Translations under genes and position numbers: made by a program
Notes under the pieces: generated by a model
Told to the model about the DNA's origin: nothing
Seen by the model: only the letters and a program-made list of their open reading frames with translations
Databases searched by the model: none
Shown here: piece by piece, positions 2,751-55,480 of the stretch
How the letters are laid out: the number at the start of each line of letters is the position of its first letter
How positions within the stretch are numbered: the first letter of the stretch is position 1
From: Carcharhinus longimanus
Taxonomy: Eukaryota
Direction of reading: 5' to 3'
DNA: 64,000 nucleotides
Assembly (NCBI GenBank): GCA_030264375.1
Contig: JASCQW010000109.1
Span: 51,933,809 to 51,997,808 of the forward strand

Positions 2751-3120
2751 ATCATTTTTTTCTGCACAGAAACATTCTAAAGAGACCAATAAGTTGCAGA
2801 AAAGAAACTCTCTGATAGCACTGCAATGTTTTAGAAATGTGTAATAATGCCATCTGTTGCTGCTTTTAAATTATTGTTCAATAAATATCTGTTACTAAAA
2901 TATCTGAGCTCAGGTTGTTCACCAGCTGTTATTGAACAGCAGCTCAATTTAAAGACAGCTAATAGCCCCTAAATGATAAGATAATATGATTTGCAATAAT
3001 ATTCATCAATTTGTCATTACTGAGAGTGTTGCCTCTAAACTGCAGTCAATGCTGAGCTAGTTGGGGAGCACTTCATTATCAGTAGAACTTGCAGCATAGC
3101 TCTGCAGCATAAATTGTTTT

Positions 3121-3365
3121 GATGTGGGTATGCCGGCATTGGACTGGCGTAAACACAGTAAAAAGTCTGACAACACCAGGTTTTAGTCCAACNNNNNNNN
3201 NNNNNNNNNNNNNNNNNNNNNNNNNNNNNNNNNNNNNNNNNNNNNNNNNNNNNNNNNNNNNNNNNNNNNNNNNNNNNNNNNNNNNNNNNNNNAACCCGAA
3301 AGCTTGTGAGTATATTATCAAATAAATAGGTTGGACTAAAACCTGGTGTTGTCAGACTTTTTACT
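3121..3365 (-). mobile_element. Palindromic Penelope-like non-autonomous element (family A), centre in an N gap
   Basis: Inverted arms cagtaaaaagtctgacaacaccagg / cctggtgttgtcagactttttactg. 14-bp direct repeat gcataaattgtttt at 3107-3120 and 3366-3379. Confidence 0.75.
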
Positions 3366-3379
3366 GCATAAATTGTTTT

Positions 3380-3690
3380 CCAGAGATTGGGAATCAAAAA
3401 CTAGAGGGCATAGGTTTAAGGTGAGAGGGGAAAGATTTAAAAGGGACCTGAGGGGCAACTTCTTCATGCAGAGGGTGGTTCGTATGTGGAATGAGCTGTC
3501 AGAGAAACTGGTTGAGGCAGGTACAATAGCAGCACTTAAAAAGCATTTGGATAAATACATAGAAAGAAAAGGATTAGAGGGATATGGGCCAAACGAGAGC
3601 AATTGGGACTAATTGGGAGGGCACCATGATTGGCATGGACTGGTTGGGCTGAAGGGCCTGTTTCCATGCTATATTGCTCTATGACTCTAC
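3380..3690 (+). mobile_element. CR1 LINE 3' end
   Basis: ORF2 end TRGHRFKVRGERFKRDLRGNFFMQRVVRMWNEL followed by the tail ..ctctatgactcta. Confidence 0.9.
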
Positions 3691-3734
3691 AACATATAAC
3701 ATCCTAATCTTTCCCACTTTTTAATGTATTTTAT

Positions 3735-4125
3735 TCAGGTTCATGATGTAGGTATCACTGGCATTTATTGCATTTCCTTAATTGCCCTGAGAAGGTAGCA
3801 TGCGACTTTATTGAACCATTGCATTTTGGCTGATTAGCTTGTTAAGTCACTTCAGAGGACAGTTAAGAGTCAGACAATTTGGTGTGGGATTAGAGTCACA
3901 CACAGTTTATAATTACAGATCACTTCCCTAATGACAATCGGTGAACTGAATGGTCACTTTTGCTTACACACTTATGCACTTTTGTATTTTCTGGATTTGT
4001 TTAACAAACTGAACTCAAACGATCAAATTGCCACAGTGGGATTTAAGGTTATATTTTACAGGATAATTAATCCACACCTCCATATTACTAGACCAGCAAC
4101 AACCATTGTAATCTTGTACTCAACT
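3735..4125 (-). mobile_element. Decayed tRNA-derived SINE plus LINE-like tail
   Basis: Reverse complement resembles the SINE at 15000-15375. Confidence 0.55.
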
Positions 4126-4369
4126 TGACCTATCCTATTCCTAATCAAGTATTCAGCAGTTCTTTTTCATATTGTAGTCAGCGCAGCATTGGAGCCAGGA
4201 GCCCATTGCAAATAGAACATAGTGGGCAATTATTGTATACCACAAGTTCAGTGGTATCTTAGGATGCTGTAAGATTGGACAGCTGGAGCTAAATATAAAC
4301 TAAATTCAGTCAGCATAATATCCATTCATCCTGCTGCCTGGATTACCAAAAGCCAGGATTCATGACCTT

Positions 4370-4593
4370 AAGAACATAGAACATAGAACACTACAGCACA
4401 AACAGGCCCTTTGGCCCACAAGTTGCGCCGATCATATGCCTACCTACTAGGCCTACCTGTAACCCTCAATCCCATTAAACCCCATGTACTCATCCAGAAG
4501 TCTCTCGAAAGACCCCAACAAGTTTGCCTCCACCACCACCGACGGCAGCCAATTCCACTCACTTACCACCCTCTGAGTGAAAAACTTACTCCT
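4370..4593 (-). mobile_element. CR1 3' tail (young subfamily, also at 6470-6720)
   Basis: Microsatellite end (agaacat)n and acagcacaaacaggccc motif. Confidence 0.85.
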
Positions 4594-4693
4594 NNNNNNN
4601 NNNNNNNNNNNNNNNNNNNNNNNNNNNNNNNNNNNNNNNNNNNNNNNNNNNNNNNNNNNNNNNNNNNNNNNNNNNNNNNNNNNNNNNNNNNNN

Positions 4694-4871
4694 TCTCAAG
4701 CAGAGAACCATTGGACGTACCTTCCCAACCCCTAACCTCCCGGAACATCTCAAGCAGAGAACCATTGGACGTACCTTCCCAACCCCTAACCTCCCGGAAC
4801 ATCTCAAGCAGAGAACCATTGGACATACCTTCCCAACCCCTAACCTCCTGGAACATCTCAAGCAGAGAACC
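4694..4871. repeat. 54-bp minisatellite, at least 3.3 copies, running into a gap
   Basis: Unit tctcaagcagagaaccattggacgtaccttcccaacccctaacctcccggaaca starts at 4694, 4748, 4802 and 4856. Confidence 0.95.
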
Positions 4872-4879
4872 GTTAAATG

Positions 4880-5201
4880 CTCAGCATTCATCTCCTCACT
4901 AACTGGAGCATCCGAATTGGACTTTTGTGGAGCATGTCTGTTTTATGCTGATTCTGGATGCGTGCACGTGGTGGTAAATGGGTAAGTGCTAGTAAGATTG
5001 GGCATGCAGCCCATTAAGTCAATTTAAGTGCATTTAAATGGCCGTCGCACCCATTTCAGCGCGGTCCCAATTGCGGTCATTTTCGGGGGCTTTAGTAAAG
5101 GGGGAACCGGCATGGAGGCGGGCGTGGATCGTGCTACTCGCCTCATGCCCGACTTTACCAAGTCTTTGCGCCCTAAAACGGGCGGTGGTAAAATCGGGCC
5201 C
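4880..5201. mobile_element. Right part of a TIR element of the same family as 10991-11988
   Basis: Collinear with 11660-11988 and ends in the TIR ggtaaaatcgggccc. Confidence 0.85.
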
Positions 5202-5650
5202 CATGCCTTTTTCTGTAAGAATCTGTCCGTTGATTTGGTGTCTTGTCCACCTCTGCCACGGTACCAATGAGAAATAAATTACTCTTGCTGTAATCAGTGT
5301 GGTGTTCTTGCTTGTGTGTTAAACATGAATTAATAGTTTGAACCAGATATGTTGTCTGTCAGAAAGTTATTTGTCCATTGTTTGGAGAGATCAAAACTGG
5401 ATGAGAATATCTCATATCATTTCTAGCGCACACCTTTATAATAGAAAAGGATTCATTGTTCACTCTGAAGCTTGAAATCCCAGACCACCTCATGCACAAG
5501 GTCACATTTCAATTTAAGGGAAGTGAAGATTTGCCTGTAAGAAATTGATTTAATTGTGCATTAAAGGGGACAAAGTGCCAGGCTGCAGCATAAAATGAAT
5601 TATATTATTCCATGAAATGCTGGATCAAAGTTCTGATGTATGTATTGTCT

Positions 5651-5915
5651 TGTGTTATGATGGCCGCGAGGGATCATCAGTAGGTCTCCCCAGGGATCTC
5701 ACAGAGTACGAGCAGAGTACTACTTAAGCCAGTGGAGTTTTACCCAATAGGGAAGGGGCAGTGGAGGGGGAGGAGGGAGGAGGTTTAAAACCAGCTGGCT
5801 CCACTCAGCCAGCAGTTGAAGGGCTCCAAGTCTTTACTTGTAGCCTGTAACTGCCGGAGCTAAACCTTATTCACGTTGTAGATAAAGGCCACAGCAAGAT
5901 CATTACTTATTGACA
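5651..5915 (+). mobile_element. Possible solo LTR
   Basis: TG...CA ends and a tgtagataaag polyA-like motif, but no clean TSD found. Confidence 0.35.
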
Positions 5916-6469
5916 TTTCTTCTTCTGCGAACATCTTAGGAGGAGTTCATCCACCTCAGAAATATTTCTCAAACATATTCACAATCAGGTTATTTTGGGA
6001 TTCTGCACCTGGGTGCTAGGCAGTTAGAAAACACTCAAACACACAACTTTGACCAGAAGACACAAATGTATTGAAAGTTCAGATAAATGGGGGGAATCCC
6101 GCCAGCTACTGACGGGATTCCCAATGGCGCATTGGATCAAGAGTAATGGCTGCAACAGGATTCTCGCCAAGCATCAAACCTGTTGTGAATCTCCAGCCCG
6201 CTGCACAGGCCCCCGTCAGGATCTCACCCAGAGCGGGCAGGAACCTGATGAGTTTTCATTTCAATGTAATTACCGGGTTTGAGGCTGGCTGCTCCAGAGT
6301 CCTGATATGCTTCCCCTCCACCCACTGGAAGTCCAGCGAGTGCCAAACAGTACAGATCCTGACAAGCATAGACCAGGTGCCTTGGTGTCTAAAGAGGGCA
6401 AGGAGGTAAGTATTGTGCCCATGTGCCCCTCTGCCACTGCCAGACTGCAGAAGGAAGGTCACACAAGGG

Positions 6470-15375: not shown

Positions 15376-16473
15376 CTCTTTCTTTCATACTTACCAGGAA
15401 TATTTAGTACCCAGTTCAGTTTAGATCTCTGTAATTGTAGTAATGTCATCTGAATTTGGCTACACATCCAGCCCCAACTCTGTTCTAGCCTTTTAAAATA
15501 CCTTCCATAATGTTTCTAATATAATATCCAAACTTGGTGTGAATGATCACACTGGTGGTTTTGCAAATGTCTCCAGTTCCTGGAAAGATCAATAAAAAGC
15601 TAGAATCTGGAAGAAATGCTGGCAGTTCTCCTTCCTCAATGCAAACTATTTTCTATTAATATTCATCAGTGGGACTTGTGGGATGTCTCATCTGCCCACG
15701 TCTAACCTTCACCCTCACCTCGCAACCCAATCCTAGTCAAACTTTGGGCCTTTGTTGCAATGGTTGTATGTGTCCAGTAGCACAGTGCTGTCGAGATAGA
15801 TACTGGTATGTGGCACCAGGGGAAAGTAGACTAGGTTAAACTAGGTATAATTTAAAGTGAAGATTAACTTTCTCACTATATTTCAGTTGTTTGGCCTTTC
15901 AACCACTTGAACGCCTGGAGTGCAGACCTGAGTTTCACTTACCTGTATTTTTAAAAAGCTTTCATGGGTTGTAGGTGTCGCTGGTAAGGCCACTATTTGT
16001 CACCCTCACTCAATGCCCTCGAGAAGGCAGTGGAGAACCACTTTGTTGAACTGCTGCAGTCCGTCTGGTGTACCTACACCCACAGTGCTGTTAAGAAGGA
16101 GATTACAGGTTTTGACCCAATGGCAGTGAAAGTCTTTATATAGGTCTTCATATACCTGCCTGATTTTAGTGGGCAAGTTATTTGCATCCAGCATTAGTTT
16201 TGTTTTATAGAATCTTACAGTGCAGAAGGCCAATTGGCCCGTTGAGTCTGCAGTGACCACAACCCCACGCACTGTACTGATCCAACCCAGTGACACAGCT
16301 GGGCTCCAGGGTCCAAAAGCATGACACTGTCCTTGAAGGCCAGCTTGACATGGCGACTGAGGGCAGACACCAGACTGTCCCAGCATCTGAAGCAGTGCAG
16401 CACTATGGCAGATGGGCTTTGCATGTTATACTCATCTCAAAGTCTCTGGTGAACTGAAAATCATCTTGTGCAT

Positions 16474-16627
16474 AAGATAATAGCAAAATACAGCAGATGC
16501 TGAAATCTGAAACAAAAGCAGAAAATGCTGGAGAAACTCAGCAGGTCTGACAGCATCTGTGGAGGGAGAATAGAGCCAACATCTTATCTTTGGCTGACCC
16601 ATGACCCAGACTTGAAATGTTGGTGAC
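16474..16627 (-). mobile_element. Penelope-like short element (family B)
   Basis: Body gcagatgctgaaatctgaaacaaaagcagaaaatgctgg; 12-bp TSD catcttgtgcat at 16462-16473 and 16628-16639. Confidence 0.75.
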
Positions 16628-17109
16628 CATCTTGTGCATGTCATCCCACCAAATTTATCAATTTGGTTTGACGCCAACATAATTTCTCACTAGGGTGACA
16701 CAAGATTGCAAGGCCTGACGGGGTGCCAGCAGCAGCTGTTTTGATGAGCCTTCATGTGATGCAAATGAATGCAAATGGAACCCGTGCCATCTGCCATTGG
16801 GAAGACCAATGGCCATTGGGGGAAATGCAATCTGATTTTATATCACGGGTTTCTGATTTTTTGGCTCTCACGGATTCTCTGTGCCCATCTGTTAGCAAAC
16901 CTGCGATGGGGTAGCTAGGAGAATTCTGCCTTATTTCTCCATTCCTTCACTGCCACCTGGTCAAAAGCTGTAATCTCCTTCTTAACAGCACAATGGGTGT
17001 AGTTACACCAGATGGACTGCAACAGTTCAACAAGGTGGTTCACCACTACCTTCTTGAGGGCAATTAATGATGGATGATAAATGGTGGCCTTGCTAGCGAC
17101 ACACTTAAA

Positions 17110-17452
17110 AAACACTTAGAAACCCAACAATGCAGAAGGAGGCCATTCAGCCCATCATGTTTGCACCAGCAACAATCCCACCTTGAATTTAACCCTGTCA
17201 CCCCACATATTTACCCTCCTAACCCCTCTAACCTACACATCCTGGGATGCTAAGGGGCAATTTAACATGGTCAATCAACCTATCCCGTACATCTCTGGAC
17301 TGTGGGAGGAAATTGGAGCACTCGGAGGAAGCTCACTCAGACATGGGGAAAACGTGCAAACTCTACACAGACAGTGACCCAAGCCAGGAAGCCGACCCCA
17401 GGTCACTGGAGTTGTGAGGCAGCAGTGCTAACCTCAGTGCTAACTGTGCCAC
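17110..17452 (-). mobile_element. HE1/V-SINE-type SINE
   Basis: Reverse complement of the 7985-8298 type. Confidence 0.85.
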
Positions 17453-18645
17453 CCACAACTCATGCAAGCTTTTTAAAACTAAAGGCAAGTAAAACTCAGA
17501 TCCGCACTCCAGTTGTTCAAGTGGTTGGAAGGACAAACAACTGAAACATAGTGAGAAAGTTAACCTTCACTCTAAATCATACCTAGTGTAATGAAGTAGA
17601 TTTCTTTCAGATTCGTACTGTGTAAATTCGCAATGCTGTAGCGTCTAACTCATTCCCAGTGATGAGTGTCACTATGGTATTTCGACAATTTTAATCACAG
17701 CAACAGTGGATGGCCTTGTTGGAGATCTGACCAAGCTAGACTTTAATACTGTCAGAGTGGTTCCTCTGCAGTCAGACTCCTTTTCCGTCAATCCCTCTAG
17801 TTGTGTTTATCATTCCAACCCTTCTGCATAGATAATATGTCTAATGTACTCCACTTATTTTCTTTTGATATTATCTTCTTCTGGCCTCATTCTTCATTAG
17901 TGCTTTTCTTTGCCCAGTTTACCCTTGGGGTCATTCTTAATCACCACATTTCAAAGCTGTTGATCTTTTTTTCTTTCTCTTTCCTAAGGCTCCAAGCCTC
18001 ATATCCGTAATTCATTATTGAACAGACAGAAAGTTTTACACCACATGGATTCTTGTTTCAAGACTCAAGCTGACATTTCTTAGAATGCTACTTAATTTTG
18101 TAAAATTATTTTGGCATTTTCAATCATTCTTTAGATTTTTATATTGCTTTTGATAAGTGGGTAGTATCCCTATTGTGGTATAATGTGTTAATAGTTATGG
18201 TAATAATATAGTTATGATACTATTTCATGATGTAACAGTGACATCAGTAGTCATGTGCTAGGGAGTCTGTAGAATAGTCTGCACACAAGAGAGACGTATT
18301 TACTTAATAGCTTAGCATGTATATGTTAAAAATCAAGTCATTTTGAAATAACCTACCTGAGTCACACATGATTAGTAAAGATTAGGCCATGAGAAACCTT
18401 GAGTATATCTACCTTTGAGTCAGAAGCTCTGGGTTTGAGTCCCACCCCAGCACTTGATGGCCATGAAAGGCACATTAATGGCATGGCTACACAGGTTGAC
18501 TGCCATCCTGTAAATCCTTCCAGTATGCCTGCAGCTAGTGATAAGACTGGCAATTTCCCAGTCAGCCAGAACGTGCAGGAGGCGAAGACAAACCAGAGCA
18601 GTACCTTGCCAACCATAACTATGGCCAACATATCAAAGTCCATGG

Positions 18646-18934
18646 GCTGACGTTTCAAGTCCAGGTGACCCTACGTCACAGTCTTGACAAAGGGTCATCT
18701 GGACGCGAAACGTCAGCTCTTTTCTTTCCTTGCAGATGCTGTAAGAAGTCTCACAACACCAGGTTAAAGTCCAACAGGTTTATTTGATAGTAAATGCCAC
18801 AAGCTTTCGGAATGCTGTTCGTCAGATGAGCCTGCATCTCCACATCATGCTTATAGATGCTGCCAGACCTGTTGAGATTTTCCAGCGTTTTCTCTTTTGG
18901 TTTCAGATTCCTGCATCTGCAATAATTTGCTTTT
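18646..18934 (+). mobile_element. Penelope-like family B element containing a nested family A fragment (18742-18847)
   Basis: 16-bp TSD atatcaaagtccatgg at 18630-18645 and 18935-18950; palindromic head at 18646-18717. Confidence 0.8.
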
Positions 18935-19454
18935 ATATCAAAGTCCATGGTTGCCAACACCCTTTTACAGTATGGTACCTGAAAAGAGAGAGGGAGAGAG
19001 CTGCTGATTTTGACAGCGTGGGTTGCTATGCTTCCTAGATAGTTGAATTCACTGACGTCTCCTAACTTCTTTCTGGCTCTGATGTTGCAAAGTGCATGTC
19101 CTTTGCCTTTGTCATTACCACAGTGTAAATTTTCTTGCAATTAAGTGTAAATTGGTGCCAGCCCCTTTCTTTAACCAGAGTATTCATTAATTTTTGCAAG
19201 TCTTCTGCACTTGTTGTAATAGAAGATATTGTTGATGACTCTCCCTCCTACCCCTATTGAATTTAGGTTAATCATTTTACTTAGATTGATAATTAGAAGA
19301 AGAATCAAGGTAGCATGATGATTGCGAAAGAGCATGGACCGTTATGTAGATAAAATTCAAATATTTACAAGTAAAACTTTGCCAACGTTTCATCAAAATA
19401 ACACAACATATTTAAATGCCATTTTGTTCTCTTTCCAATGCCTATTCTGAGATA

Positions 19455-19585: not shown

Positions 19586-22264
19586 CATTACCAAGATTGC
19601 AGATGGTGGAGAATGGAAGGCATAATTTTATCTTGGGCTGTAAATTAAACCAGATACAGTGCTTGCAGTCTCACAGCTTTCATTGGAAGTTCTTGCGTTG
19701 GCATTTTCCTCATGATTACAAAATGGATTGTTCTCGAAATAGCGGCTGCCAGTCTCACCTCACAATTTTCGTGCTCACGAAGGCTGTTATTGCACAACTT
19801 CAAAAAGTTTGGCACAGTTTTAATAGAGTAGACTCCATATTTGGTGCTAAACTTAACTCCAGCTTAATTTAGACCTCACTTCTGATTGAGTGGCTGCAAG
19901 CTCATCATTTATTTTTCAAGTGCTGAAACAGTAGAGATAATCCGTGCTGAAAATTTCTGCAGCAGTGTTTCAAATTTCACAACTGTGGGAGCATAAATAA
20001 AGCCTCTGAAAATGTAGTTTACATGTTATAACAAAAGGAACTATTCCTCTATATAAGGAAATGTATTTAATTTTATAAATAAGTTTAGAGTATCACAGTT
20101 GGCTTTTCAGAAAGTGAATTTGCAACGTGGTATTTCCCTAGAGTCTCGTGGAAGGAATGAATACAGGATACACAGTATATGAATTTAAACACAATATGGC
20201 TTTATTCATTGGATATAAAACACTTGACTGAGATTAGCTGTAGGGGACATCTGTTTCCCTGTTCCATTGCCAACTGACTGAAATGTCCTTGGATTTTCAG
20301 AAAGGGTTTTAGGCCTTCTTGTCGCTGACAACATGTATTTCCACTTTGCAGTATTTCGTGTTTTTTATTCAAGTCAACTTTTTTTAAAAAACAGAAGAGG
20401 GCAATCTTGCCAATAAAATTCAAGTCCAGAACAAGCAGGAAAACAGGAGAGTTTCAGATGTGTTTTTTTTTGGTGAGGCCACTAGTCAAATCTTTCGCAC
20501 TTTGTGCAATAAAAAAATCCCTCGATCTGATTTCCACCTATAGTGGGAGTGGGAGTGGGAGTGAAATCACCTCAAAGCCGGCTGATAGCAGCAGAGGGAA
20601 CCATTACACATGTGCAAGTCTTTGACCTCAGAGCCGCAGAGACCTGTTGGTGCCTCTGCTGCTAATAACCTGCCGGCCTCTGTTGGCCCTGCATCCTCAC
20701 CACCTCCATACTACTGCAGAGCTCAGCTGCCATTCAAAACCTCTCCCTTGCCCAGAGTAATCGCATGGTGTAGACACAAGGCTGAATGTGCCAGATAGAT
20801 ATCTGGTGCTGACAAGATTGCGATAGGCAAGAATTTGGACGCGAACCTGATTTCTCAGTTATTGCGTAATCTTACCAGCTTGCCTTGTCCATCAACCGAT
20901 GGGACGCAATGATAAGATCACCGCCAAAGTGTTTAGAATGACAGTGTCCAGTTAAATTGGCTATTCCACAGCTGGTTACACCTGCAAATGAGCTGTGAAA
21001 ACAAGCTACAACCAAAGATCAAATCTCTTTGGTTAATTAATCAAGATCAAGAAAGCATTGGCTATGAATTAAAAGGCAAATATATCTTCAAAATGTATTT
21101 GATGATCAGACTTTTGCATATCTCTTATTATTGACGATTGGGTTGTCTCCTGATCTTGTGAATACTTTGCTGAATTAATGATGTCAGTTGGCACTTGCCT
21201 GAATGATATAAAAATATTATATCTGCTACTTTACTTTGTTCTGAATTTCCATCCTGCAGTCACCTTGATCCCATTTTACTTCATCTACAACCAAGGCCTA
21301 CAATCACTAGTAAGTCACTAGCAAATTACAAGTGCATGTTTGACCCTTTGCTAGTTGGATGCTAGGCATCAGCAACTCATGACTACCAGGCTCAGCACCA
21401 CAGTTATCTGAAAGCGTATGGGTGCACTGCTATCATCCTCCTGACCAGGACATGAACATACACCACAACCTATGGCATGGAATCATAGAATTTACTGTGC
21501 AGAATAAGCCATTTGGCCGATTGAGCCTACGCCGACAACAATCCCACCCAAATCCAATCCCTGTAACCCCACATATTTACCCTCCTACTCCCCATGACAC
21601 TAACGGGAAATTGATCATGGCCAATCAATCTAACCTGCACGTCTTTGGAGTCCCACCAGTTGGAGTTGCGGAGCTTCAGCAGCAGTTGTTTAATTTTCTA
21701 CAATCAGGTCATAGTAAGCACAGCACCATGGATAATTATATTCAGGAGCAATGATTTTACAAGTAATGCCCACCCTGCTACTATACGAGATCAGTTAAGT
21801 CAATATAGATTGGAAGTCCAACTTGCGTTATTTCTGCTCTGTATAATGGTACTCTGTATAATAGTACTCAGTGAAAAAGCTCAGACAAAACTTGCATTAA
21901 TATTTTTCCTTTGGGACTGACCTTACTTTGGGTCCAATTCTTAATTTAATTTTTATTCTTTTCAAAGCACACATCTCTCTTGACCTAGCTGTGATGCAGG
22001 AGCATCTCTCTCTGCATCATTTTCCTTTTAACACGCTGAGTTCCAGATACATTCTGGTCCTCAAATCAGTCCAACAGAAACGAGACAGAGCCGGCATTAA
22101 TCTGTTAACACTGTTCATTAGGGTGAGATTTCGGTGTGGCAGATTAACAAATGTTAGCCTTGCCAGTAATGCTCACATCCCATAAAATAACAAAGTTAAC
22201 GGAATGGCAGAAGGGGGAACTGTTGTAAACAGTTATTATTCAGACTGGTAGAATGTAAACGGTA

Positions 22265-22652
22265 CAGTAAGAAGTCTCAAGACACAAAGTTAAAGTCCAA
22301 CAGATTTATTTGGTATCACAAGCTTTCGGAGCGCAGCCCCTTCATGATCTGATGAAGGCAATGTGACTTTACGAGCTTGCCTTGTCCGTCAGCTGACAGG
22401 CTGCAATGGTAAGATTGCCCCAAGTGTTTAGAATGACAGTGTCCAGTTAAATTAGCCATATCCACAGCTGGCTACACAACAGATGATCTGTGAAAACAGG
22501 CTTCAACCAACTAATCAGAAAGATCAAATCTCACCTGATGAAGAGGCAGCACTCTGAAAGCTCGCGCTATCAAATAAACTTGTTGGACTTTAACCTGGTG
22601 TTGTGAGACTCTTTACTGTCCCACCCCAGTCCAACGCCAATATCTCCACATC
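22265..22652 (+). mobile_element. Palindromic Penelope-like family A element with a captured genomic spacer, inserted in a CR1 RT fragment (22200-22940)
   Basis: Arms at 22265-22345 and 22535-22619; TSD aatgtaaa(c/t)ggta at 22252-22264 and 22653-22665. Confidence 0.85.
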
Positions 22653-25294
22653 AATGTAAATGGTAGTTCTCCCCAAGGGTCACTTCAAGGACCACTGCCC
22701 TTTCTGATCTATGTTATTGACTTTGACTTGGGTGTGCAGATGACATGAAACTTTGAAGTATTGTGAGAATAGGGATAGACTTAAAGAGAACATAGACAGG
22801 CTGGTGTGATAGGCAGATAATGCATCAGATGAAATTTAACACAGAGAAATGGAAGTGATACATTTTTGGAAGACTGAGGAGAGGGAACATAAACTAAAGA
22901 AAGAGTGAAATTCAAAAGGAATGCAGGGACAAAGAAACCTAGCTGGGAGTATACTCATTTGAGTAAAAATCAAGTTAACAAATTGACAACCCTTTAAAGA
23001 GCTATTTTAACAAAACCAAATCTTTAAAGGAAACATACCTAATTGAGACCAAAATGTTTTGAGCAGAGATGATGCACTCCAGCACACACATGCACGAGAT
23101 CTTCCGTAACCCTATCAGTAGAGATCATGTGCTCTTTCTCCGTGAACATTTGTACACAGACCTATCAAAGGATGATTTCTCTAATTCCCTGGCTTGTTCA
23201 GGAGTCAGCGACCCAACATATACAGTAAGAAAAATATATAAGATGGGGCAGCACAGTATGTAGAAGGGTGCATGAACTTGTTTGCTGGCATGACATAGTG
23301 AAGTTGGAACAGGGTGTCCATTTATAAACTTCTAAGTGCCATTTGTCATAACTTGAATGTTGTAATATCGACGATCGCCTGTAGGTCATTTGTGGAAAAG
23401 AAATACACCCTGATTAATGAAGTAGGATGGTGCATTGGACTATGTTGATCACTTTCCGAAAATATGAATTGGTGAATTAAACATTATATTCTTAAAAAGA
23501 ATATGTTTTCATTAAAAATTGCTTTTGTACAGTTATACTGACTTTTTTAGTACCTCGTGTTGTATTTGTGCACTTACTGAATAAAAGGTCATTTCGGTCT
23601 GCTTACATTTATAAATACACATAAATATTTAAATCCACCATTAGTCTTGGGGCTGAGAGAAAATCTTACATTCTCTAATTCATTTCCTTTAAAAAGGCTG
23701 CCCCGTAGTTGCATACAGGCCAGCTCGGGGGTGGGGGGGGGGGGGGGGGGTGGGGGTGGGGGGNNNNNNNNNNNNNNNNNNNNNNNNNNNNNNNNNGAGA
23801 GTGGCTGAGGGACATCATCGCCTCCACCACTCAAATAATGGAGGCGGGTGTCAACCCCCACCCACAACACAGGCATGAGGGTGACCTGATTTCCCTCCCC
23901 CCTCAGGTCCCCCACCAAGCTCTCCTCCCTCTCAGACCCCTACTCCTCCCTTATAGCCCCATTCAGGTCCCGTGCCTTGGCAATGCCAATGGTGCACTGA
24001 CCCCTGGCACTGACAATCTTGTCTGTCACCTTAGACCCTGGAAAGGAGTGAAGGAGATAGGTCCGGTGCCCGTGTGCCCTCTGCTACTGCCAGGGTGCAG
24101 AGGAAGAGTTTTCCAAGGGTCCTAGAGGTTGGGTGGTTCAAGCTGGGTACAAGAGGTTGATCTCGGCATTGTCTCCCGGGCTGGGGCTCCCATGGCTGGG
24201 TTGCCCTTTCCAGCACTGGCAGACTGAAGATCACCCCTGGCATGGTGATTTCAGGCAGCTGTGTAATCAACATCCTCATTCCTGTCTGTCAGCTGTGAAG
24301 ACTTTGAAGTGGCCTGGTCACTTTAATGTCCATCTGGCTGACTTTCAAGTCACAGCACTCCATTCTACATCAGAGATTTCATTTTCTCATTGTCAGAAGC
24401 TGCAGCTGTGAGAATATCTATTTTGAATCCTCTGACTGACAGTGATACTCACTTTCAGTGGGAGCAGGTGTTTCCCATCTATCTCCACAGTTGTTCACTC
24501 AGCCTCATTGTTTTAATATTGCATTTATCTCAAGTCTCTGAGCCTTCATAAAAAGCTCAGAGTCATTGAAACATCTTCTAACCCTTTGAAAACCTTTGTT
24601 TCCAATTCAATTACATGCCAGTCCTTTTAAACTCTCATTTGATTGACAGCCTAATGGTTTTTATTCAGCATACAGTCAGCTGTATTTATCTGTTTTTCCT
24701 TTCACAGTTGGCTGCTTCTCAGGTACCTCATTATTCCTAATTGCAATGTTTATATAAAAGAGGAACAGAGACACAGTTAGCTCTTGTGAAGTTGCTTGCA
24801 GCTTTGACCAACATTCCCAGTGTTAGAAAGGGAAGTCCGGCCATGAGACCCTCATCCTGGGGGCAAGTGGTAAGATGAAACTCTTTCACCTAGCCCCAGC
24901 CCACCCAATCCCCAGGACCCTAGGGGACCCTTCCATTGCAGCCTGGCAGCTGCAGAAGACACATGCAAACTGGCTTTACCTCTTTGATTTGTTTTTGGGG
25001 TCTTGCACACGAGCTCCATGATTGTCAGGACCTGTACTGAAGCTTACCTTGTGCCAACCTCACTGGGGAGGTGGGTGAATCGTGTGAGGGAATTGAATCA
25101 GGCTTCAGATCCCCTGATTACATTTAAAATTTGAATAATTATTGGATTCCTGGCTGTTCTGGCTGGGAGCCCAGTTGGGGTCAGCCTGGCAGGCTGGGAA
25201 CATCGTGAAAGCCATTTTTTGTCCAACACCCGATTGTCTGGGCCAATACGATCACCATCTGGAGCTAGCAGGCCGGAGATTCACCCCCATCATT

Positions 25295-32945: not shown

Positions 32946-34794
32946 TTAAATTCTGACTATTAGTGCCAACTGCCCTGCAATTAATAACTTACCAACATGC
33001 CCTGATGTTGTTCTACTTATTAGAATTTGATGAATGCTGAGTAGATTTACATTAAGTTTCTATTAAAACCAACATATTCATTACTGTAAACAACCTGTTT
33101 TAATACCTGCAAAATACATTACAAAATTTAAGTTCATACAAAAACTAGAACTTTGCTTTCCTGAGAATTGTATTTCTTCATTTACCTTTGCATCGGAACC
33201 ACATTGTCCATCACTTTACTGCACACATTGATCATGAATGCATGAATTTGCTCCAAATTTAATTTGGAAGTAGTCTTATTTTCCCTAAGTAATGTGCGGG
33301 AATCTGATGCAAAGTTGTTTCTCCATAAGTTTACATGTCTTCCTCTTTTTAGGAAAGACTAAATAAAAGGTGATAGTAACAGAAATATTGATGGAGAATA
33401 GCTCCAGGACAGTTATGATGCTGGGTCACTATTGATATTGAATAATGCTAAACAGTGTCCATGACCACCACAACAACGTTATTGAACTTAAAGTTTATTT
33501 AAGTGCCACAAGTAAGCTTACATTAACATTGCAATGAAGCTACTGTGGAAATCCCCTAGTCACCATACTATGGCACCTGTATGGTTACATTGAGGGAGAA
33601 TTTAGCATGGCCAATGCATCAAACTAACAAGTTTTTTGGACTGTGGGAGGAAACCCGCGCAGACACAGGGACAACATGCAGACTTCGCACAGACAGTGAC
33701 CCAAGCCAGGAATTGAACCTGGGTCCCTGGCACTGTGCCACTGTACTGCCCCAAGACTTGGAAAGGAATTTGTAACATTGACCGATTTGATGATAACCAA
33801 AGAGCAATGAGTTGAAGAGAAAGGGGACACAAGTATACTTATGGAGAGGACAGGCTTGAATACCAAAGGTTCACTGGGTTTGGTTATAAAGATTTAATTC
33901 TCAATAAACAAATGTATGAAAAATCTTATTTTCTGACTGAAAGATTCTGATTAATATAAGCAGCAAATGCAGAAAATACTCAACAGGACTGACAGCACCT
34001 GTACAAAGGGAGAGAAAAAAAACTGACCCAATGACCCAGACCTTCTGGTCTGTGGATTGTTGGAGACCAGATATGCAACACATGGGAAATCCCAAAGCAC
34101 TGACTCCATGGAAATTGCCCAGGAAGTTTGAACTTTCAATGTGCAATTCTTCAGTTTCCCAGGACCCGCCAAAAAGGTTACCAACTCTGAGTTAAAGTCA
34201 AAGATTTCATACAGTTCCAATTGAATTATCCAGGAAATGTTATACAGAAAAGTCCTAGTCCAACTCCTGGGTAACTATGAAACTGACTCCACCAAACACT
34301 CAAACTGACCCTGTGACATCGCCCTCCACCCCGAACTATCTCCCTAACACCCCAACCACCTACCCTCAAAGTGACCATCCCTCATGACCAGACCTGGTAC
34401 TTTTGCCCAGCTAAATGCTTTGGGACCTGTAAACAGTTGTCAGAATATGGCAGCGAGCACAGATTCTTCTCACTGCCCCCTGAGTGGATCCCTGCTCTGT
34501 GGGTGTTCTTCTGCATGGTGGATCAGAAGTTTGGCCAGAAAGATCGAATCCAAGTAAGTAGGTAGTTTTCTGTCTGATCAGCATTGGACAAAGCGGTTCC
34601 AATTCTGATCAGAAGATTTGGGCCAATGTTTCATGTCTGTGGCCTTTCATCAGACCCAGAACCTGAAGCATTAATTCTAGTTGTCACACCACAGATGCTG
34701 TCACAGGTGCTGAGTATTGCCCACATTTGCTGCTTTTGCTTCAAATTTCCAGCATCCACAGAGTTTTGCTTTGGAGTGATTCTGGTTATTGGGT

Positions 34795-35402: not shown

Positions 35403-35685
35403 TCACACAGTATTGATGGAACTCTGTACTTTAGCTATTCCAGCTGGATTGGAAGAAATAAATTGAGGATCGTGATTACTTGCCATTGTACAAGGATGGT
35501 TGGCATTTTCAACTGGCAATTGATCCTCAGAATCTGTTAAAGGTGAAGTATCATCTGCTGTGATGTCAAGGCCTTTCCAATGTTTGATTGCTTGAATGCG
35601 TTGCTCTCTATCCAATTTGTCCAGTTGTCGCGCTTTGAGGACATGAGATGCAAAGACTGTGCCTTGAAGACTACGAAATAAATAC
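35403..35685 (-). CDS. ATP10B: ATP10B-like terminal coding exon: (R)YLFRSLQGTVFASHVLKARQLDKL...VQSSINTV*
   Basis: RYxxxSLQGT follows ALLP as in ATP10 proteins. Acceptor ttctcAG|G is in the correct phase; TGA at 35403-35405. Confidence 0.9.
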
Positions 35686-36342
35686 CTGAGAATATAAATA
35701 AAGGCATGCTGACTGTGCTTGCAATGTGTTAAAACAAATACTATCAAAACATGATTCAGGTTTAACTCCAATGCTGTAAACCTGTGAAGTTTATACCAAC
35801 GGAGTATCACAAATTTCCATTGTCAAAGGAAGTTCTTTTTTCTAATATTAAACTGGAGAATTTCCTGGGATAAGTGAGAAAGCCCAGCAGAACAGAAAAT
35901 AATTAAGTGGTAATATTAGCCCTCAAAAATGGGTGGGTTTGGATCGAGTGGGAGGTTAAAAACATTAACAATCTGAAACAGGAACCAACCTGCCTACATT
36001 CAACTGTGGTATTAATCAATGCACTCGCAGGAAACTAGTCGGTCATTAACACCCTTTAAGCAGGCTGTGTCTCATTTTATGATGTTTCTATTTTAAACCT
36101 GTGTCAGCCATGTCTCCCAGGCCTCAGGAAACAGGTCAAATTCAAAAAAAGACTAGATTTATTAGGTAAGTGCCTTTACAGCCCTGATTGTGGGTCAGAG
36201 GAAAGTTCAAGGGGTTTCCCCACAGGTCCAATGAGCTTGCTCATAAACTAGTTCCATGATCTCCCCGTAATAAACCCCAACCCCACCACCATGTCCCCAT
36301 GGTCACCAACCACTGCTGTGATCATTGATTTTCCCCATTTCA

Positions 36343-36886: not shown

Positions 36887-37505
36887 ACGGTCTAACCTAA
36901 GTCTTATACAGCTGCAACATGATTTTTCAATTCCTACACTCAATGCCCTGACCAATGAAGGCCAGCATGCCATGTACCTTTCTTGATCACCTTGTCCACC
37001 TGAGTTGTCACATTCAGGGAACTGTGGATCTGCATGCCTAGATCCCTTTAAATGCTAATATTCCTAAGGGCTCTACATTTACTGTATACGTTCCTTCTGC
37101 AGTAGACCTTCCAAATTGCATGACCTCATATTTGTCTGGGTTAAATTCCATCTGCCATCTTTAAGCCCAGCCAATTTGTATCCTGCTATATCCTCTGACA
37201 ATCCTCCTCATTATCCGCCACTCCCCTAATTTTTGTATCATCTGCAAATTTACTAATCAGAACACTTACATTTTCTTCCAAATCATTTATATATATTACA
37301 AACAACAGAGGTCCTAGCATGAATTCTTGTGAAACGCTGCTTGTCACAGACCTCCAGTTGGAAAAGTGCCCTTCCACTGCTACTCTCTGCCCAAGTCTGT
37401 TGTGTATCCATCTTACCACTCATCTTGGATCCCATCTGACTTAATCTTCTGTATCAGCCTGCCATGAGGAACCTTATCAAAGGCTTTACTAAAATCCATA
37501 TATAG
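36343..37505 (-). mobile_element. CR1 LINE RT to 3' end (intronic)
   Basis: Encodes YMDFSKAFDKVPHGRL and LGPLLFVIYINDL..ISKFADDTK, followed by the 3' tail. Confidence 0.92.
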
Positions 37506-38014
37506 AACATCCCTCTGATTCCCTACAATTGCTGCCTCTCCTAATAATCTCCCCATTTCCAACCTTGAACACCAAATTCCAACCCTTTTCCACCCCATCT
37601 TTCCTCCCATTCTCTGACTCCCCATGATCTGCCCCTTGAACTTGCAAACATACAAATTAGGAGCAGAGGCAAGACATTCAGATCCTCCAGACTGGCTGAT
37701 CTGATTGTAACCTCAACCCCACATTCCTGCCTATTTTTGATAACCTTTCACTCCCTTGTTAATCAAGAATCTATTTAGCTCCATTTTAAAAATATTCAAC
37801 TACTCTGCTTCCACTGCCTTTTGAGGGAGAGAGTTTCAGGGACTCAGGATCCTCTGAAAGAAGAAATTTCTCCTCAACTCCGTCTTAAATGAACAATACA
37901 TTTTTAAACCTAGTTGTCGATTCTCCAATAAGAGGAAACATAAGGGCAGTTAGTCATGAGCAATAAATACGAACCCAGCCAGTGACAATCACATTCCCCG
38001 GAATTGTTCTTAGT

Positions 38015-38850
38015 GCCAGAGATTGTCAGAGGATACGAAGGGATATAGAGAGATTGGAGACTTGGGCACAGAAATGGCAAATAGCTTTTAATCCAGACAA
38101 ATGCCAGGTGATGCATTTTAGAGGATCAAATTTAGGTGTGAATTATACTATAAATGGTAGAACCCTTAGGAACATTGACATACAGAGGGATCTGGGCATG
38201 CAGGTCCAGTTTCCTAAAAGTGGCAACACAGGTGGCCAAGGTGATTAAGGAGGCATATGGCATGCTTGCCTTCATTGGCTAGGGCATTGAGTACAAGAGT
38301 TGGGAAATTATGTTGTAGCTATATAAAATCTTTGTTAGGCCGCATGGAGTATCGCCTGCAGTTCTGGTTGCCACACTAACAGAAGGACACGGAAGCTTTG
38401 GAGAGGGTGCAAAGAAGGTTCACCGGGATATTGCCTGGTCTTGATGGTGTTGGCTACGAGGAGAGGTTGAATAAACTAGGAATGCTTTCACTCGAAAGAT
38501 GGAGATATCTACAAAATTATGAGTGGCACAGACAGGGTGGATAGTCAAAGGCTTTTTCCCAGGGTGGAAGTGTCAATTACAAGTGGGCACAGGTTCACAG
38601 TGAGAGATAGAAAGTTTAAGGGAGAAGTGCAGGAGAAGTTTTTCACACAGAGTGGTGGATACCTAAAATGCACTACCAGAAGTAGTGGTGGAAGCAGACG
38701 CATTAGCAACATTTAAGAGGCATTTGGATGGGTTCATGAATAGGAAGGGAATAGAGGGATACAGACCCAGTAAGGGCAGAAGGTTTTATTTTAGTTTAGT
38801 TAGGGCACCGTGATCGGCGCAGGCTTGGAGGGCCGAAGGAACTGTTCCTG
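38015..38850 (+). mobile_element. CR1 LINE 3' part (intronic)
   Basis: Encodes WAQKWQIAFNPDKCQVMHF..QRDLG, followed by the tail. Confidence 0.9.
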
Positions 38851-47325: not shown

Positions 47326-47429
47326 TCAAGAGGGCCGCTCGCCACCACCTTCTCAAGAGGGCCGCTCGCCACCACCTTCTCAAGAGGGCCGCTCGCCACC
47401 ACCTTCTCAAGAGGGCCGCTCGCCACCAC
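47326..47429. repeat. 27-bp perfect minisatellite running into a 605-nt gap
   Basis: Unit tcaagagggccgctcgccaccaccttc, about 3.9 copies. Confidence 0.95.
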
Positions 47430-51655: not shown

Positions 51656-51781
51656 CACATTCTTATAAAAGAAGTAAGTGATCATGTTGGCCAATCGAGT
51701 GTAGCACCAGTGACCATGTACCAGAAGCAGCTTTTTTAGGTGTTTGAAGTGAGGGATTGCAAAATCACTGGCCATCACAGC
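51656..51781 (-). CDS. ATP10B: ATP10B-like exon: [42 protein letters not shown]
   Basis: Has the P4-ATPase LLLVHGHW and FYKN (TM5) motifs. Boundaries cggtAG| and GTG|GTaag; 126 nt. Confidence 0.96.
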
Positions 51782-51829
51782 CTACCGACAGAGAATACAA
51801 GTGGAAACTTCAGAATTTGTTAGATACAA

Positions 51830-52320
51830 TGCAGAATTACATAGCTCACACAGCCGAGACAGGCTATTCAATACTGCCAGTCCTTGCCAGTGTAAATGCT
51901 CCACTGGAGCCTCTTCCTATCCTTCTATGAACTCCATCGACAGAACTCTGCATTCTCTTCTTCGTGCCTTAAATGTATTATACCTTCACCTCAGCCACTC
52001 CTTGTGCAGTGAGCTTCATATTCTTACTATGCTCCAGGTGAAGAAAATTTATCTTTATCTTCCTATGTGATTTCTTGATGACTATCTTATATTGATCATC
52101 TCTAGTTTTGCTTTTCCTCAAAAGGGGAAACCTTTTAGCTTGGTCTACTCTATCAGAACATTTCATAATTTTAAAGATCCCTATTAGGTCACCCCTCAGC
52201 CTTTGCTTTTCAAGGGAGAGACAGCCTGTTCATCCTTTCTTCATAGGTATAACCTCTCATTTCTGGTATCATCCTTGTCAATCTTTTTAAACCTTCTCCA
52301 GCACATCTATATCCTTTGTA
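51830..52320 (-). mobile_element. Decayed CR1 3' fragment in an intron
   Basis: Remnants of RLRGDL..FKIMK..DRVD and KTR. Confidence 0.7.
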
Positions 52321-52516
52321 AATATCTAACTGACCGATGAAAAGTACTCTAATATGTTATGAAATTAGGGCAACTCAGTATGAATGCATATTAGTTTTGG
52401 TAGGTTTTCCTACCATGTTATGGAGGTGGAAGGATGATATGCTAGTCCACTGTATGAACCGCTCTTTCAGCAGTATCCATTTTTTATCAGATTAGCACAG
52501 AAAGGAAACCCTGTAC

Positions 52517-52593
52517 CTGCATTCCTTCTTGACCAAAGATTCCAATGCCCACATCAGCAGCCTGGATCATGCTGACATCATTGGCCCCATCAC
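52517..52593 (-). CDS. ATP10B: ATP10B-like exon: (G)[25 protein letters not shown]
   Basis: Completes the GDGAND P-type ATPase hinge motif. Boundaries ttgcAG| and CAG|GTacag; 77 nt, phase matches the upstream exon. Not in the ORF track. Confidence 0.96.
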
Positions 52594-53616
52594 CTGCAAG
52601 ATGAAATACATAGTTGCACATTTTAATACATCCTTCACCAGTTAAACACAGATTGATTGCAAACACGTTTTTGCTGTGGCCTTGTGTTCTAAGGGGGCCA
52701 AAACCTGATGGCCACCCTGATGATTCCCCGGTATCAACATTCTGGAGTTACCATTGATCAGAAACTGAACTGGACAAGCCATAGAAATACTATGGCTATA
52801 ACAACAGGTCAGAGGCTAGATGTCCTAAGACAAGTACATCTTCTCCTGACTTCCAATAGCCTGTCCACCATTTGCAAAGCACAAATCAGGACTGTAATAG
52901 AATACTCTGGATGAATGCAGCTCCAAAAACACTCAGGAAGTCAATGACATCCAAGACAAAGCAGCCATTTGATTGGCATCCCATCTATCACCTTAAACAT
53001 TCACTCCCTCCATCACTGATGAACAGTGGCAGCAATATGTACCACCTTTAAGATGCACTGCAGGAGAGGTTGGATACACTGGGATGTTTTTCCCTGGAGC
53101 ATAGGAGACTTAGGTGTGATCTTGATAAAATAATGAGGGGCATAGATCAATTAAAGTTAACATATTTTCCCAAAGGTAGGGGAGTCTAAAATTAGAGGAT
53201 ATAGGTTTAAGGTGAGAGAGGAGAGATACAAAAGGGTTCAGAAGGGCAAAGGGTGGTGAGTATCTGGAACAAGCTGTCAGAGTTGGTAGTAGTAAAGGCA
53301 AGTACAATTTTGTCTTTAAAAAGCATTTAGACTGTTACATGGGTAAGATGGGTATAGAGGGATATGGGCTAAATACAAGCAATTGGGACCGGCTTAATGG
53401 TTAAAAAAAGGTGGCGTTGACAAGTTGGGTCGAAGTGCCTGTTTGCATGCTGTAAACCTGTACGATTCTATAATAATGGTGAGGTTGTCAACAATGAAAG
53501 TGGACAGCAACTTGTGGTATCCAAAACTGAGTTTAATTGCATTTGAGGGAACATAAGTCATAAACAACTGTTTAGAGTAGGAAATTCTTTACCAGACATT
53601 TAAGTAAGATGTATAC

Positions 53617-53920
53617 CTATCGCTAGCGTCATGACCTTTAGATGATCTCGGACTAGCTTGAGTACCATGCTTTTCTGCAGAGGAGTAAAACGGCAGCACA
53701 GTACAGATTGGCAACACTTTGCCAAATCCAGGAATTTCTTCTGCAGGTTCCCATGGAAGACCGCACTCAAAGTATTTCCATCAATCACTAGACCAAAGCT
53801 GGGTTTGAATATAGAGGAAGTAGGGTCAGAGTTCACTGTTAATTTGGACGTAGTGCAATTTACTTCTCTACTCATTTTAATTTCTTCCAAGATGCAGTCC
53901 AGCAAAGATTCACAGGCCTC
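53617..53920 (-). CDS. ATP10B: P4-ATPase (ATP10B-like) coding exon, P-domain: EACESLLDCILEE...FGLVIDGNTL...VLCCRFTPLQKSMVLKLVRDHLKVMTLAI(G)
   Basis: The translation shows the P4-ATPase motifs LVIDG and CCRxTPLQK..TLAIG. Acceptor tttaacAG|GAG and donor G|GTatac; 304 nt, ending in phase 1. Paralog assigned from recalled similarity to human ATP10B. Confidence 0.93.
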
Positions 53921-55274
53921 CTGTTAAATGAAAGCAAAGTTTCTTTTAAAAAATACAGTTTACAAAATAGAATAGTTATTTCAATGAGATCATGCCAGGA
54001 GCACTCCAGTAGTAGGGAAAATGCTAACATCTATTATAAAGGGTGAGATAACAGAAAACTTAAGAAAGATTCAATGGGTGTAGACAAAGTCAACGTGGAT
54101 TTGTGAAAAGGAAATTATGTTTGGAAAAACTACTGATGTTTTTTTGAGGCCCTAACTAGCAGAATAGGTAAGGGAAAATGAGTGGATGTGGCTTAGGATT
54201 TTAAAAAAATCTTTGATCAAGTTCCACAAGAGATTCATTTGAAAAATTAATGCACATGGAATTGGGGATAATATAGTGGCATGGATTGCAAATAGGAAAC
54301 AAAGAGTAGGAATAAATGATTTTTTTTGGAGTGGCAGGCACTGACTAGAGGGGTACCACAGAGATCAGTGCTTGGGCCCCAGCTATTCACAATATGTATC
54401 AATGGTTTGGATGAGGGAACCAAATGTAGCATATCCAAGTCTACCTGATGACTCAAAACTTTGAGGATATTAAGAGGCTTCAAGATGAGTGACAGGACAG
54501 GTATGTGGCCGATGCAGAATAATATGGATAAGAGAATTTATCCACTTTGAATGGAGAAACAGTATGGCAGGATATTATTCAAAAGGTGATAGATTGGAAG
54601 ATGTTGACATACAAAGGGACCTGGGTGTCTTTGTATGCCAATTACTGAAATCAAGCATACAGGTTCAGTAAGAAGTTAAAGACAATTGGCGTGTTGACCT
54701 TATTGCAAGACGACTTGAGTACAAGAGCAAGGATGTCTTACTGTAGCTGCATAGGACCATGGTGAAAGCACAGCTGCAGTATTGTGTGCAGCATTGGTCT
54801 CCTTATCTAAGAAAGGATATAGCCACCATAAAGAAGGTGCAGCAAAGGCTCATCAGACCGATTCCTGAGATGGCAGGATTGCCATGTGAGGAGAGATTGG
54901 GTTAACTGGGCCTGCGTTCACTAGAATTGAGAGGAACATATAAAATTCTGACAGGTTTAAACGGAATGGAAGCAGGGATGATTGTTCCTCTGGCTGAGTG
55001 AGGGAGATGGATGCTGTCTGGGACAAGGAACTACGGTTTTAGGATGCAGGTTTGGCAATTTAGGACTGAGATGAAGAGAAATTTCTTCTCTCAAAGGGTG
55101 GTGAACCTGCAGAATTCTCTACCACAGAAGGCTGTGGATGCCAAGTCACTGGATATATTTCAGAAGAAAATAGACACAGTTTTAGACTCAAAGGCATCAA
55201 GGGGACAGGGAAAGTATGCTTCTTTTAGGGCAAACCAAATAATGGAGAGATTGTGGGAGTATGGCACTGCAATA

Positions 55275-55480
55275 CCGCAAGAAGTCTCACAACGCCAGGA
55301 TAAAGTTCAATAGGTTTATTTAGAATCACGAGCTTTCAGATCACTGCTCCTTCATCACTCACCTGATGAAGGAGCAACGTTCTGAAAGCTCGTGATTCCA
55401 AATAAAACTGTTGGACTTTAACCTGGTGTTGTGAGACTTCTTACTGTGCCTACCCCAGTCCAATGCTGGCATCTCTACAT
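55275..55480 (+). mobile_element. Palindromic Penelope-like family A element
   Basis: ~80-bp inverted arms at 55279-55357 and 55364-55443, plus the tail ccccagtccaatgctggcatctctacat. Confidence 0.8.
55359..55395 (+). ncRNA. Minimal type I hammerhead ribozyme motif
   Basis: UCAC-CUGAUGA-A-GGAGC(AAC)GUUCU-GAAA-GC-UC^GUGA. Core boxes are intact, helix I is UCAC/GUGA, helix II is 5 bp (2 G-U), and helix III is the palindrome AGCU. Confidence 0.7.

What the first reader, a model, noticed from the sequence alone, without database searches (positions are those of the whole stretch)
3107..55480. Window-wide system: two families of palindromic, hammerhead-bearing short retroelements with 12-16 bp TSDs
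Seen: family A (3121-3365, 18742-18847, 22265-22652, 55275-55480) and family B (16474-16627, 18646-18934, degraded at ~33940-34060 and ~34620-34775) differ in sequence but share one architecture. Each has a truncated inverted copy of a unit, then the unit with a unique tail. The symmetry centre sits at a motif CUGA(U/C)GA-A-stem-GAAA-(GC/CG)-UH. Long TSDs flank them (14, 13, ~15, 12 and 16 bp) and there is no coding capacity. Established: Penelope-like element pLTRs carry minimal type I hammerheads with palindromic helix III, and these elements often insert with inverted 5' portions. Inference: these are non-autonomous, ribozyme-processed Penelope derivatives (retrozyme-like). With a hammerhead on each strand, they could be processed from transcripts of either orientation.
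Basis: partly seen in the sequence, partly recalled or inferred. Interest (0 to 1): 0.8.

Follow-up and report, generated by a model that had tools for sequence, protein, structure and literature searches.

The report
Penelope retrotransposon end fragments in shark
These short mirror-image repeats in shark DNA are most likely the clipped ends of ordinary Penelope-type jumping genes, whose tiny ribozyme motif is already known, and not a new self-cutting RNA system.

Summary
The repeats are real. The window is shark DNA in and downstream of ATP10B. It holds four family A and five family B copies; one B copy is new. Five of eight copies tested have 12-16 bp target-site duplications. The hammerhead motif matches the published Penelope minimal consensus. 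Family A also shows the head-to-head arm, the 33-35 nt tail and the tail distance described for Penelope-like elements. One of 38 related peptides joins a family A arm to a Neptune-like endonuclease linker (compared by eye).

No copy has an intact hammerhead on both strands (4 of 12 arms keep the core). A read-through RNA folds into a hairpin that buries the core. There are no tandem units, so these are not retrozymes, and centre junctions mostly differ between copies.

Best reading: dead, 5'-truncated insertions of two autonomous Penelope-like families. Two points remain open: arms stop at the hammerhead, and one copy carries DNA matching a site about 1.4 kb upstream.

The parts
3121..3365 (-). 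A1: family A palindrome; 35-nt tail at 3121-3155; centre is a 100-N gap (3193-3292); TSD 14/14 at 3107-3120 and 3366-3379
16474..16627 (-). B1: family B; short inverted arm joined to the direct arm inside helix II, no intact CUGANGA box; TSD 12/12 at 16462-16473 and 16628-16639
18646..18934 (+). B2: family B; ~34-nt inverted hammerhead arm plus direct arm, both cores mutated; TSD 16/16 at 18630-18645 and 18935-18950; interrupted by A2
18742..18849 (+). A2: family A nested in B2; inverted arm with intact core but deleted helix II, plus last ~20 nt of tail; TSD 13 bp with 2 mismatches at 18729-18741 and 18850-18862
20872..21027 (+). Probable local donor of the DNA between the arms of A3 (83% over 145 nt; 4-nt microhomology at the junction with the direct arm)
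   Evidence: no further long copy in the window
22265..22652 (+). A3: inverted arm, ~11-nt restart, ~165-nt spacer (about 22369-22532), direct arm with intact core (22535-22563) but weak helix I, 33-nt tail; TSD 13 bp with 1 mismatch at 22252-22264 and 22653-22665
33929..34066 (-). B3: degraded family B copy, same helix II junction as B1, no core, no TSD
34622..34776 (+). B4: degraded family B palindrome; inverted arm keeps CUGAUGA and GAAA but the helix III palindrome is mutated; no TSD
55275..55481 (+). A4: cleanest family A palindrome; inverted arm lacks C3; 34-nt tail; no TSD; sits in another repeat with ~60 nt of unmatched DNA at its left end
55359..55395 (+). Only complete minimal type I hammerhead in the window: helix I 4 bp, CUGAUGA (55363-55369), extra A, helix II 5 bp, GAAA-GC-UC, predicted cut after 55391
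55805..55899 (-).

Best explanation
These are dead, heavily 5'-truncated insertions of two autonomous Penelope-like element (PLE) families of sharks; family A is probably of the Neptune type. Only the terminal ~120-130 nt was copied: minimal hammerhead, spacer and tail. SHOWN in the sequence: two arms head-to-head, RNA 3' ends at the outer boundaries, tail on one arm only, variable 12-16 bp TSDs, variable centres, decayed cores. FROM THE LITERATURE: an Anolis PLE protein cuts and extends both target strands and starts reverse transcription at two internal sites that bracket the tail. INFERRED: staggered nicks 12-16 bp apart each prime a cDNA, one from the tail-bearing start and one from the tail-less start. 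Both stop early near the hammerhead and are joined end to end through short homologies, sometimes via a jump to nearby DNA (A3). The hammerhead is a passenger here. It works, if at all, as a weak dimer or protein-assisted ribozyme in tandem transcripts of the parent element, not in these copies. Confidence is about 0.9 for PLE identity and about 0.55 for the two-nick joining step.
For: A4's motif fits the published consensus CUGANGAH-G..C-GAAA-N-palindrome-N-UH, including the extra base after A9. That paper reports thousands of single motifs per genome and opposite-strand pairs 100-700 bp apart, read as truncated PLEs. An inverted 5'-truncated copy and a 30-40 bp one-sided tail are standard PLE anatomy; inverted pLTRs with 8-10 bp TSDs, 18-38 bp junction palindromes and captured DNA occur in Adineta. 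In the window 4 of 4 A inverted arms start at the tail-less boundary and 4 of 4 A copies end at the tail end, each within about 3 nt; the three complete tails are 33-35 nt (D. virilis has a 34-bp repeat). Helix II start to 3' end is 111 nt in A4; the Anolis start site is 111-118 nt from the same point. Both strands are cut and extended in vitro. 37 of 38 related peptides from other contigs carry the family A unit in differing flanks and with differing centres. One, P0149, continues into a CX4CxxC linker with 10 of 30 ungapped identities to Neptune1_Ap (by eye).
Against: No full RT plus GIY-YIG element sharing the unit was obtained. The link rests on one 30-residue stretch. The motif alone appears in 33% of shuffles of the peptide set, Pfam, the Atlas and PDB did not recognise it, and the best of four displayed Neptune rows was chosen by eye (7 of 27 non-cysteine identities, p 0.001-0.004, uncorrected). 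Family B has no protein link (1 hit, no domain). Random truncation predicts more long copies than seen: no window arm extends more than about 6 nt upstream of the core. B inverted arms start just 3' of the cut site, not at a tail boundary. A4, B3 and B4 lack TSDs.
Confidence: 0.8

Rival explanations
1. A dedicated short RNA is the template: either a non-autonomous ~125-nt PLE derivative, or run-off cDNA to a transcription start just upstream of the hammerhead, mobilised by PLE protein.
For: Three A arms in three independent insertions begin at the same base, 5 nt upstream of C3. Several external peptides restart about there (P0125, P0152, P0154, P0157; peptide resolution). B1 and B3 share a centre junction. 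PLE-derived non-autonomous elements are described.
Against: Centres differ among A2, A3, A4, B2, B4 and the external copies. P0140 runs on past the hammerhead and P0149 reaches coding sequence. The B1/B3 junction could recur because the two helix II strands are complementary.
Confidence: 0.12
2. One reading: retrozyme-like elements cut out by a hammerhead from transcripts of either strand.
For: A real minimal hammerhead motif is present; vertebrate retrozymes derive from pLTRs and occur in the one chondrichthyan sampled.
Against: No head-to-tail units. No copy has two intact cores. The palindrome buries the core. Copies span the cut site. Minimal motifs do not cleave as monomers and cleave weakly as dimers; 8 of 9 Xenopus dimers tested did not cleave.
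Confidence: 0.04
3. Same PLE origin, but the inverted arm comes from fold-back self-priming on one (possibly antisense) template rather than from priming at two nicks. This is an alternative for one step of the best explanation.
For: Proposed for Adineta junction palindromes. The short B inverted arms resemble those palindromes.
Against: It does not by itself explain why 4 of 4 A inverted arms end at the tail-less boundary flush with the TSD.
Confidence: 0.25
4. MITEs of a DNA transposon.
For: Short, non-coding, strongly palindromic.
Against: TSDs vary from 12 to 16 bp; the inverted repeat does not reach one end (tail); centres vary; a PLE-type hammerhead is present.
Confidence: 0.01

Closest known systems
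[quoted passage not shown]
   Same: Type I core, extra base after A9, no loop 3, palindromic 15.2-16.2, many single truncated copies, opposite-strand pairs.
   Different: No shark appears among the alignment rows or accession table I read. Most window copies are decayed.
EN+ PLEs, Neptune and Penelope/Poseidon clades (Craig 2021, PMC8557442; PAc of Anolis, PMC11167929)
   Same: Inverted 5'-truncated arm, one-sided 30-40 nt tail, similar hammerhead-to-end distance, Neptune-type linker next to one related copy.
   Different: No ORF in these copies. PAc's ORF starts in helix II, whereas the family A frame from the AUG in the core closes after 9 codons.
Adineta vaga Penelope solo and inverted pLTRs (Arkhipova 2013, PMC3846280)
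   Same: Head-to-head pLTRs, junction palindromes, TSDs, unrelated DNA captured between solo pLTRs.
   Different: TSDs of 8-10 bp there and 12-16 bp here. Here the captured piece has a probable donor about 1.4 kb away.
Animal non-LTR retrozymes (PMC7229834; bioRxiv 10.64898/2026.07.22.740005)
   Same: Non-coding, type I hammerhead, pLTR ancestry, TSDs longer than 4 bp.
   Different: Retrozymes are head-to-tail tandem units; these are head-to-head and cannot place two ribozymes on one strand.

Membership tests
Penelope-like elements (EN+) | Terminal repeat with a minimal type I hammerhead | tested here: met
   Family A: complete in A4 direct. Family B: recognisable only in decayed form.
Penelope-like elements (EN+) | 30-40 nt tail on one end only | tested here: met
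   33, 34 and 35 nt in A3, A4 and A1. Not defined for family B in the window.
Penelope-like elements (EN+) | Inverted 5'-truncated copy, head-to-head | tested here: met
   A1-A4, B1, B2, B4.
Penelope-like elements (EN+) | Variable-length TSD | tested here: met
   12, 13, 13, 14, 16 bp in 5 of 8 copies tested.
Penelope-like elements (EN+) | Same unit flanks an ORF with telomerase-like RT and GIY-YIG endonuclease | tested here: inconclusive
   None in the window. 1 of 38 related peptides has a Neptune-like linker, by eye only; not confirmed by Pfam, Atlas or PDB. None for B. No shark genome could be searched.
Penelope-like elements (EN+) | Self-cleavage as dimer or with element protein | not testable with these tools
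   Needs a cleavage assay.
Hammerhead ribozyme (structure) | Covariation in helices I and II | tested here: inconclusive
   79.5% of cells paired, 0 compensatory changes in 6 closely related arms; slid controls 23-59%. The helices pair in both families although their sequences differ.
Non-LTR retrozymes | Head-to-tail tandem units, each with a hammerhead on the same strand | tested here: not met
   No adjacent same-strand copies with hammerheads.
Non-LTR retrozymes | Canonical type I hammerhead with helix III stem-loop (2020 definition) | tested here: not met
   No loop 3; no Rfam hammerhead match. The 2026 preprint also admits minimal motifs.
Non-LTR retrozymes | Expressed as circular RNA | not testable with these tools
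   Needs RNA data.
MITE | Terminal inverted repeats at both ends and a fixed TSD length | tested here: not met
   One-sided tail; TSD 12-16 bp.

The most novel reading that the evidence does not exclude
The minimal hammerhead acts in PLE insertion as an RNA dimerisation and joining site, not as a cutter. Its AGCU or ACGU palindrome holds two template RNAs in a dimeric protein complex, each target nick primes on one RNA, both reverse transcriptases stop at the paired hammerheads, and its self-complementary helices let two same-sense cDNAs anneal. That would explain why the palindromes centre on the hammerhead, why three A arms begin at the same base of helix I, and why the B inverted arms begin at its 3' edge. 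Shark genomes would then hold a very large fossil record of a little-understood step of PLE transposition.
Probability: 0.15. Interest if true: 0.6.

Novelty: new member of a known kind. Interest (0 to 1): 0.27.

Why it matters
As found, modestly: it adds shark examples to a known class and corrects the idea of a two-strand ribozyme system. The families cover about 2.6% of this window, so sharks could supply a very large sample of PLE junctions. How inverted pLTRs and the tail form is still called undefined. A genome-wide tally of arm ends, TSDs and captured DNA would test two-nick priming against self-priming, and would test whether the hammerhead has a role other than cutting.

Tried and rejected
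Rfam scan: no hammerhead, 4 chance-level hits. GTDB scans with one A and one B motif, hoping for host-contaminated contigs: 0 loci each. Phage search with A4 and plasmid search with B1: no match. Pfam on 278 frames: P4-ATPase exons, two weak RVT_1 fragments away from the elements and one chance hit. Profile search with a family B sense-frame peptide, looking for a PLE N-terminus: 1 hit among 101 candidates, no domain. Pfam, Atlas and PDB on P0149: nothing relevant. A loose TSD search with 25-nt slop left A2 inside the null; with fixed boundaries it is significant. Folding single hammerhead arms gave no signal above shuffles (8 arms, z -1.3 to +1.9), as expected for a motif without helix III. 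The A spacer-plus-tail hairpin was mildly stable (z -1.8 and -2.5). The source taxa of the external peptides stayed unknown; they are cited by id only. Lunse 2017 (PMC5785218) was not held and the PAc GenBank file was unreadable. Eight paper searches found no description of these shark families. Repbase, Dfam, subscription journals, the metagenome and viral contig collections and bioRxiv supplements were not searchable, so prior annotation remains likely and unchecked.
Full report
Context. Exons on the minus strand between 53923 and 33050 match shark ATP10B; the best hit is Mustelus asterias at 88-100% per exon, and the next named hits are other cartilaginous fishes. The window is therefore shark DNA. 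A4 and B5 lie upstream of the first matched exon with no further exon to the window's end, so probably in an intron. B3 and B4 lie between the last two matched exons, and the other copies lie downstream. The assembly has ten N gaps.

Observation. Blastn and window-built profiles recover four A copies, the four B copies named and a fifth B fragment at 55805-55899. A arms are 76-95% identical over their shared ~64 nt. With boundaries fixed, 5 of 8 copies tested have TSDs: 14/14, 13 (2 mismatches), 13 (1 mismatch), 12/12 and 16/16. Only 5 of 3000 random sites reach the weakest score. A looser search had left A2 within chance. A4, B3 and B4 have no TSD. No element overlaps a Pfam hit among 278 frames.

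The hammerhead. A strict descriptor finds 3 cores against 0.25 expected, all in family A arms. A4 direct has a 4-bp helix I, CUGAUGA, an extra A, a 5-bp helix II and GAAA-GC-UC. This is the published minimal PLE consensus (PMC4209133: parts 1-2 of 4 of the text, parts 1-2 of 3 of the supplement), although position 11.1 is U where the consensus has C. Rfam does not detect it. Of 12 arms examined, 4 keep CUGANGA and no element keeps it on both strands. A1's centre is a gap. B cores are mutated or truncated, and B1 and B3 join inside helix II and lack the box. Six A arms show 79.5% pairing and no compensatory change, so covariation is untested in practice.

Why 'either orientation' fails. The A4 transcript folds into a hairpin of about 80 bp (-121 kcal/mol, z -18). 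The core and GAAA are paired in it on the strand that bears the intact motif, and both strands fold equally well. Arms that reach the hammerhead span the cleavage site. Minimal motifs are inactive as monomers and weak as dimers. In the Anolis element the hammerhead needs protein and is dispensable for insertion in vitro (PMC11167929, main text read whole). Retrozymes are defined by head-to-tail units (PMC7229834, passages; bioRxiv 10.64898/2026.07.22.740005, parts 1-3 of 5, supplements closed). None are present here.

PLE anatomy. All four A inverted arms start at one boundary and all four copies end 33-37 nt further on, at the tail end. An inverted truncated copy plus a 30-40 bp tail is standard (PMC8557442, passages; PMC8969392, passages; 34-bp repeat in PMC2377424, passages). 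Adineta shows the same layout with 8-10 bp TSDs and captured DNA (PMC3846280, passages and Discussion). In A4, helix II lies 111 nt from the 3' end; Anolis reverse transcription starts 111-118 nt from the same landmark. Passages of two reviews were also read (PMC6155905; PMC6765202).

Related loci. No shark genome was searchable, and bacterial, phage and plasmid collections gave nothing. An antisense reading frame of A4 did retrieve 38 distinct short predicted proteins from unnamed contigs. 37 carry the unit; P0156 is an unrelated tandem repeat. Their flanks and centres differ. P0125 is a complete palindrome. P0124 places A directly after B sequence, echoing A2 inside B2. P0149 runs from an antisense arm into a CX4CxxC motif, the Neptune/Nematis linker signature, with 10 of 30 ungapped identities to Neptune1_Ap in the Craig supplement (searched by term only). 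This match is by eye. The motif alone arises in a third of shuffles, and three profile or feature searches did not confirm it. It also agrees with my recollection of shark PLE proteins, which is not a test. Family B has no such link.

Mechanism. Inferred: the PLE protein nicks both strands 12-16 bp apart and each 3' end primes a cDNA, one from the tail-bearing start and one from the tail-less start. The two short cDNAs are joined head-to-head, leaving a TSD. Cutting and extension of both strands and the two start sites are shown for Anolis; the joining step is my inference, and fold-back self-priming is the published alternative. A3 fits template jumping. Its 165-nt centre matches 20872-21015 at 83%, about the same as the identity between its two arms (81%), and there is a 4-nt microhomology at the junction. 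That donor could instead be an unrecognised repeat.

Unexplained. Three A arms start at the same base, 5 nt upstream of C3. The inverted arms of B1, B2 and B4 start 3-7 nt 3' of the cut site. Long copies are absent from the window. These points keep alive a short dedicated template and the bolder idea that the hammerhead serves as a dimer and joining site.

Verdict. The repeats are real but of a known kind: new or unchecked shark members of PLE terminal fragments. Eight library searches found no description of them, but Repbase and Dfam were not available. Interest 0.27.

Noticed in passing
window 33050-53923 (-): 3' exons of shark ATP10B. The exon at 35404-35687 aligns to the Mustelus protein (flagged low quality) in two frames.
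   Followed up: partly
window 22369-22532 and 20872-21027: The A3 spacer duplicates DNA about 1.4 kb upstream in the same orientation, 83% identical: a probable locally templated capture.
   Followed up: partly
window 18742-18849; protein P0124: Family A inserted in family B here, and A directly follows B sequence in an external contig: possible targeting of one PLE end by another.
   Followed up: partly
window ~55205-55274: About 60 nt with no match in the window lie between an interrupted repeat (CR1-like 3' end, label recalled) and A4's left arm; no TSD.
   Followed up: partly
window 55357-55365 (-): The antisense of A4's helix I and core reads CAG|GTGAGT, a consensus splice donor (recalled), on the host gene's strand; it would be buried in the hairpin.
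   Followed up: no
window 15836-17591: Fold-back element with ~295-bp inverted arms (86-87% alike); B1 sits inside it and a dispersed repeat splits the right arm.
   Followed up: no
window 1738-2606: Element with 129-bp inverted ends, 92% complementary, 611 nt apart; MITE-like.
   Followed up: no
proteins P0127, P0129-P0131, P0133-P0135, P0139, P0143, P0145, P0154: Antisense peptides read FVK, FLK, FFK or FIK where family A has FIR, implying a subfamily with U instead of C at hammerhead position 3 (inferred from codons).
   Followed up: no
window 55410-55465 and 22581-22635: The tail pairs with the spacer in a stem-loop that encloses the tail-less boundary (z -1.8 and -2.5); candidate start signal for reverse transcription.
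   Followed up: partly
window 37189-37419 (-) and 37967-38245 (+): Weak RVT_1 fragments (E about 0.002), probably decayed LINEs.
   Followed up: no
window 3155-3192 and 3329-3366: A1's arms are identical over their visible shared part and differ from the other A copies: a young subfamily, with the hairpin centre lost in a 100-N gap.
   Followed up: no
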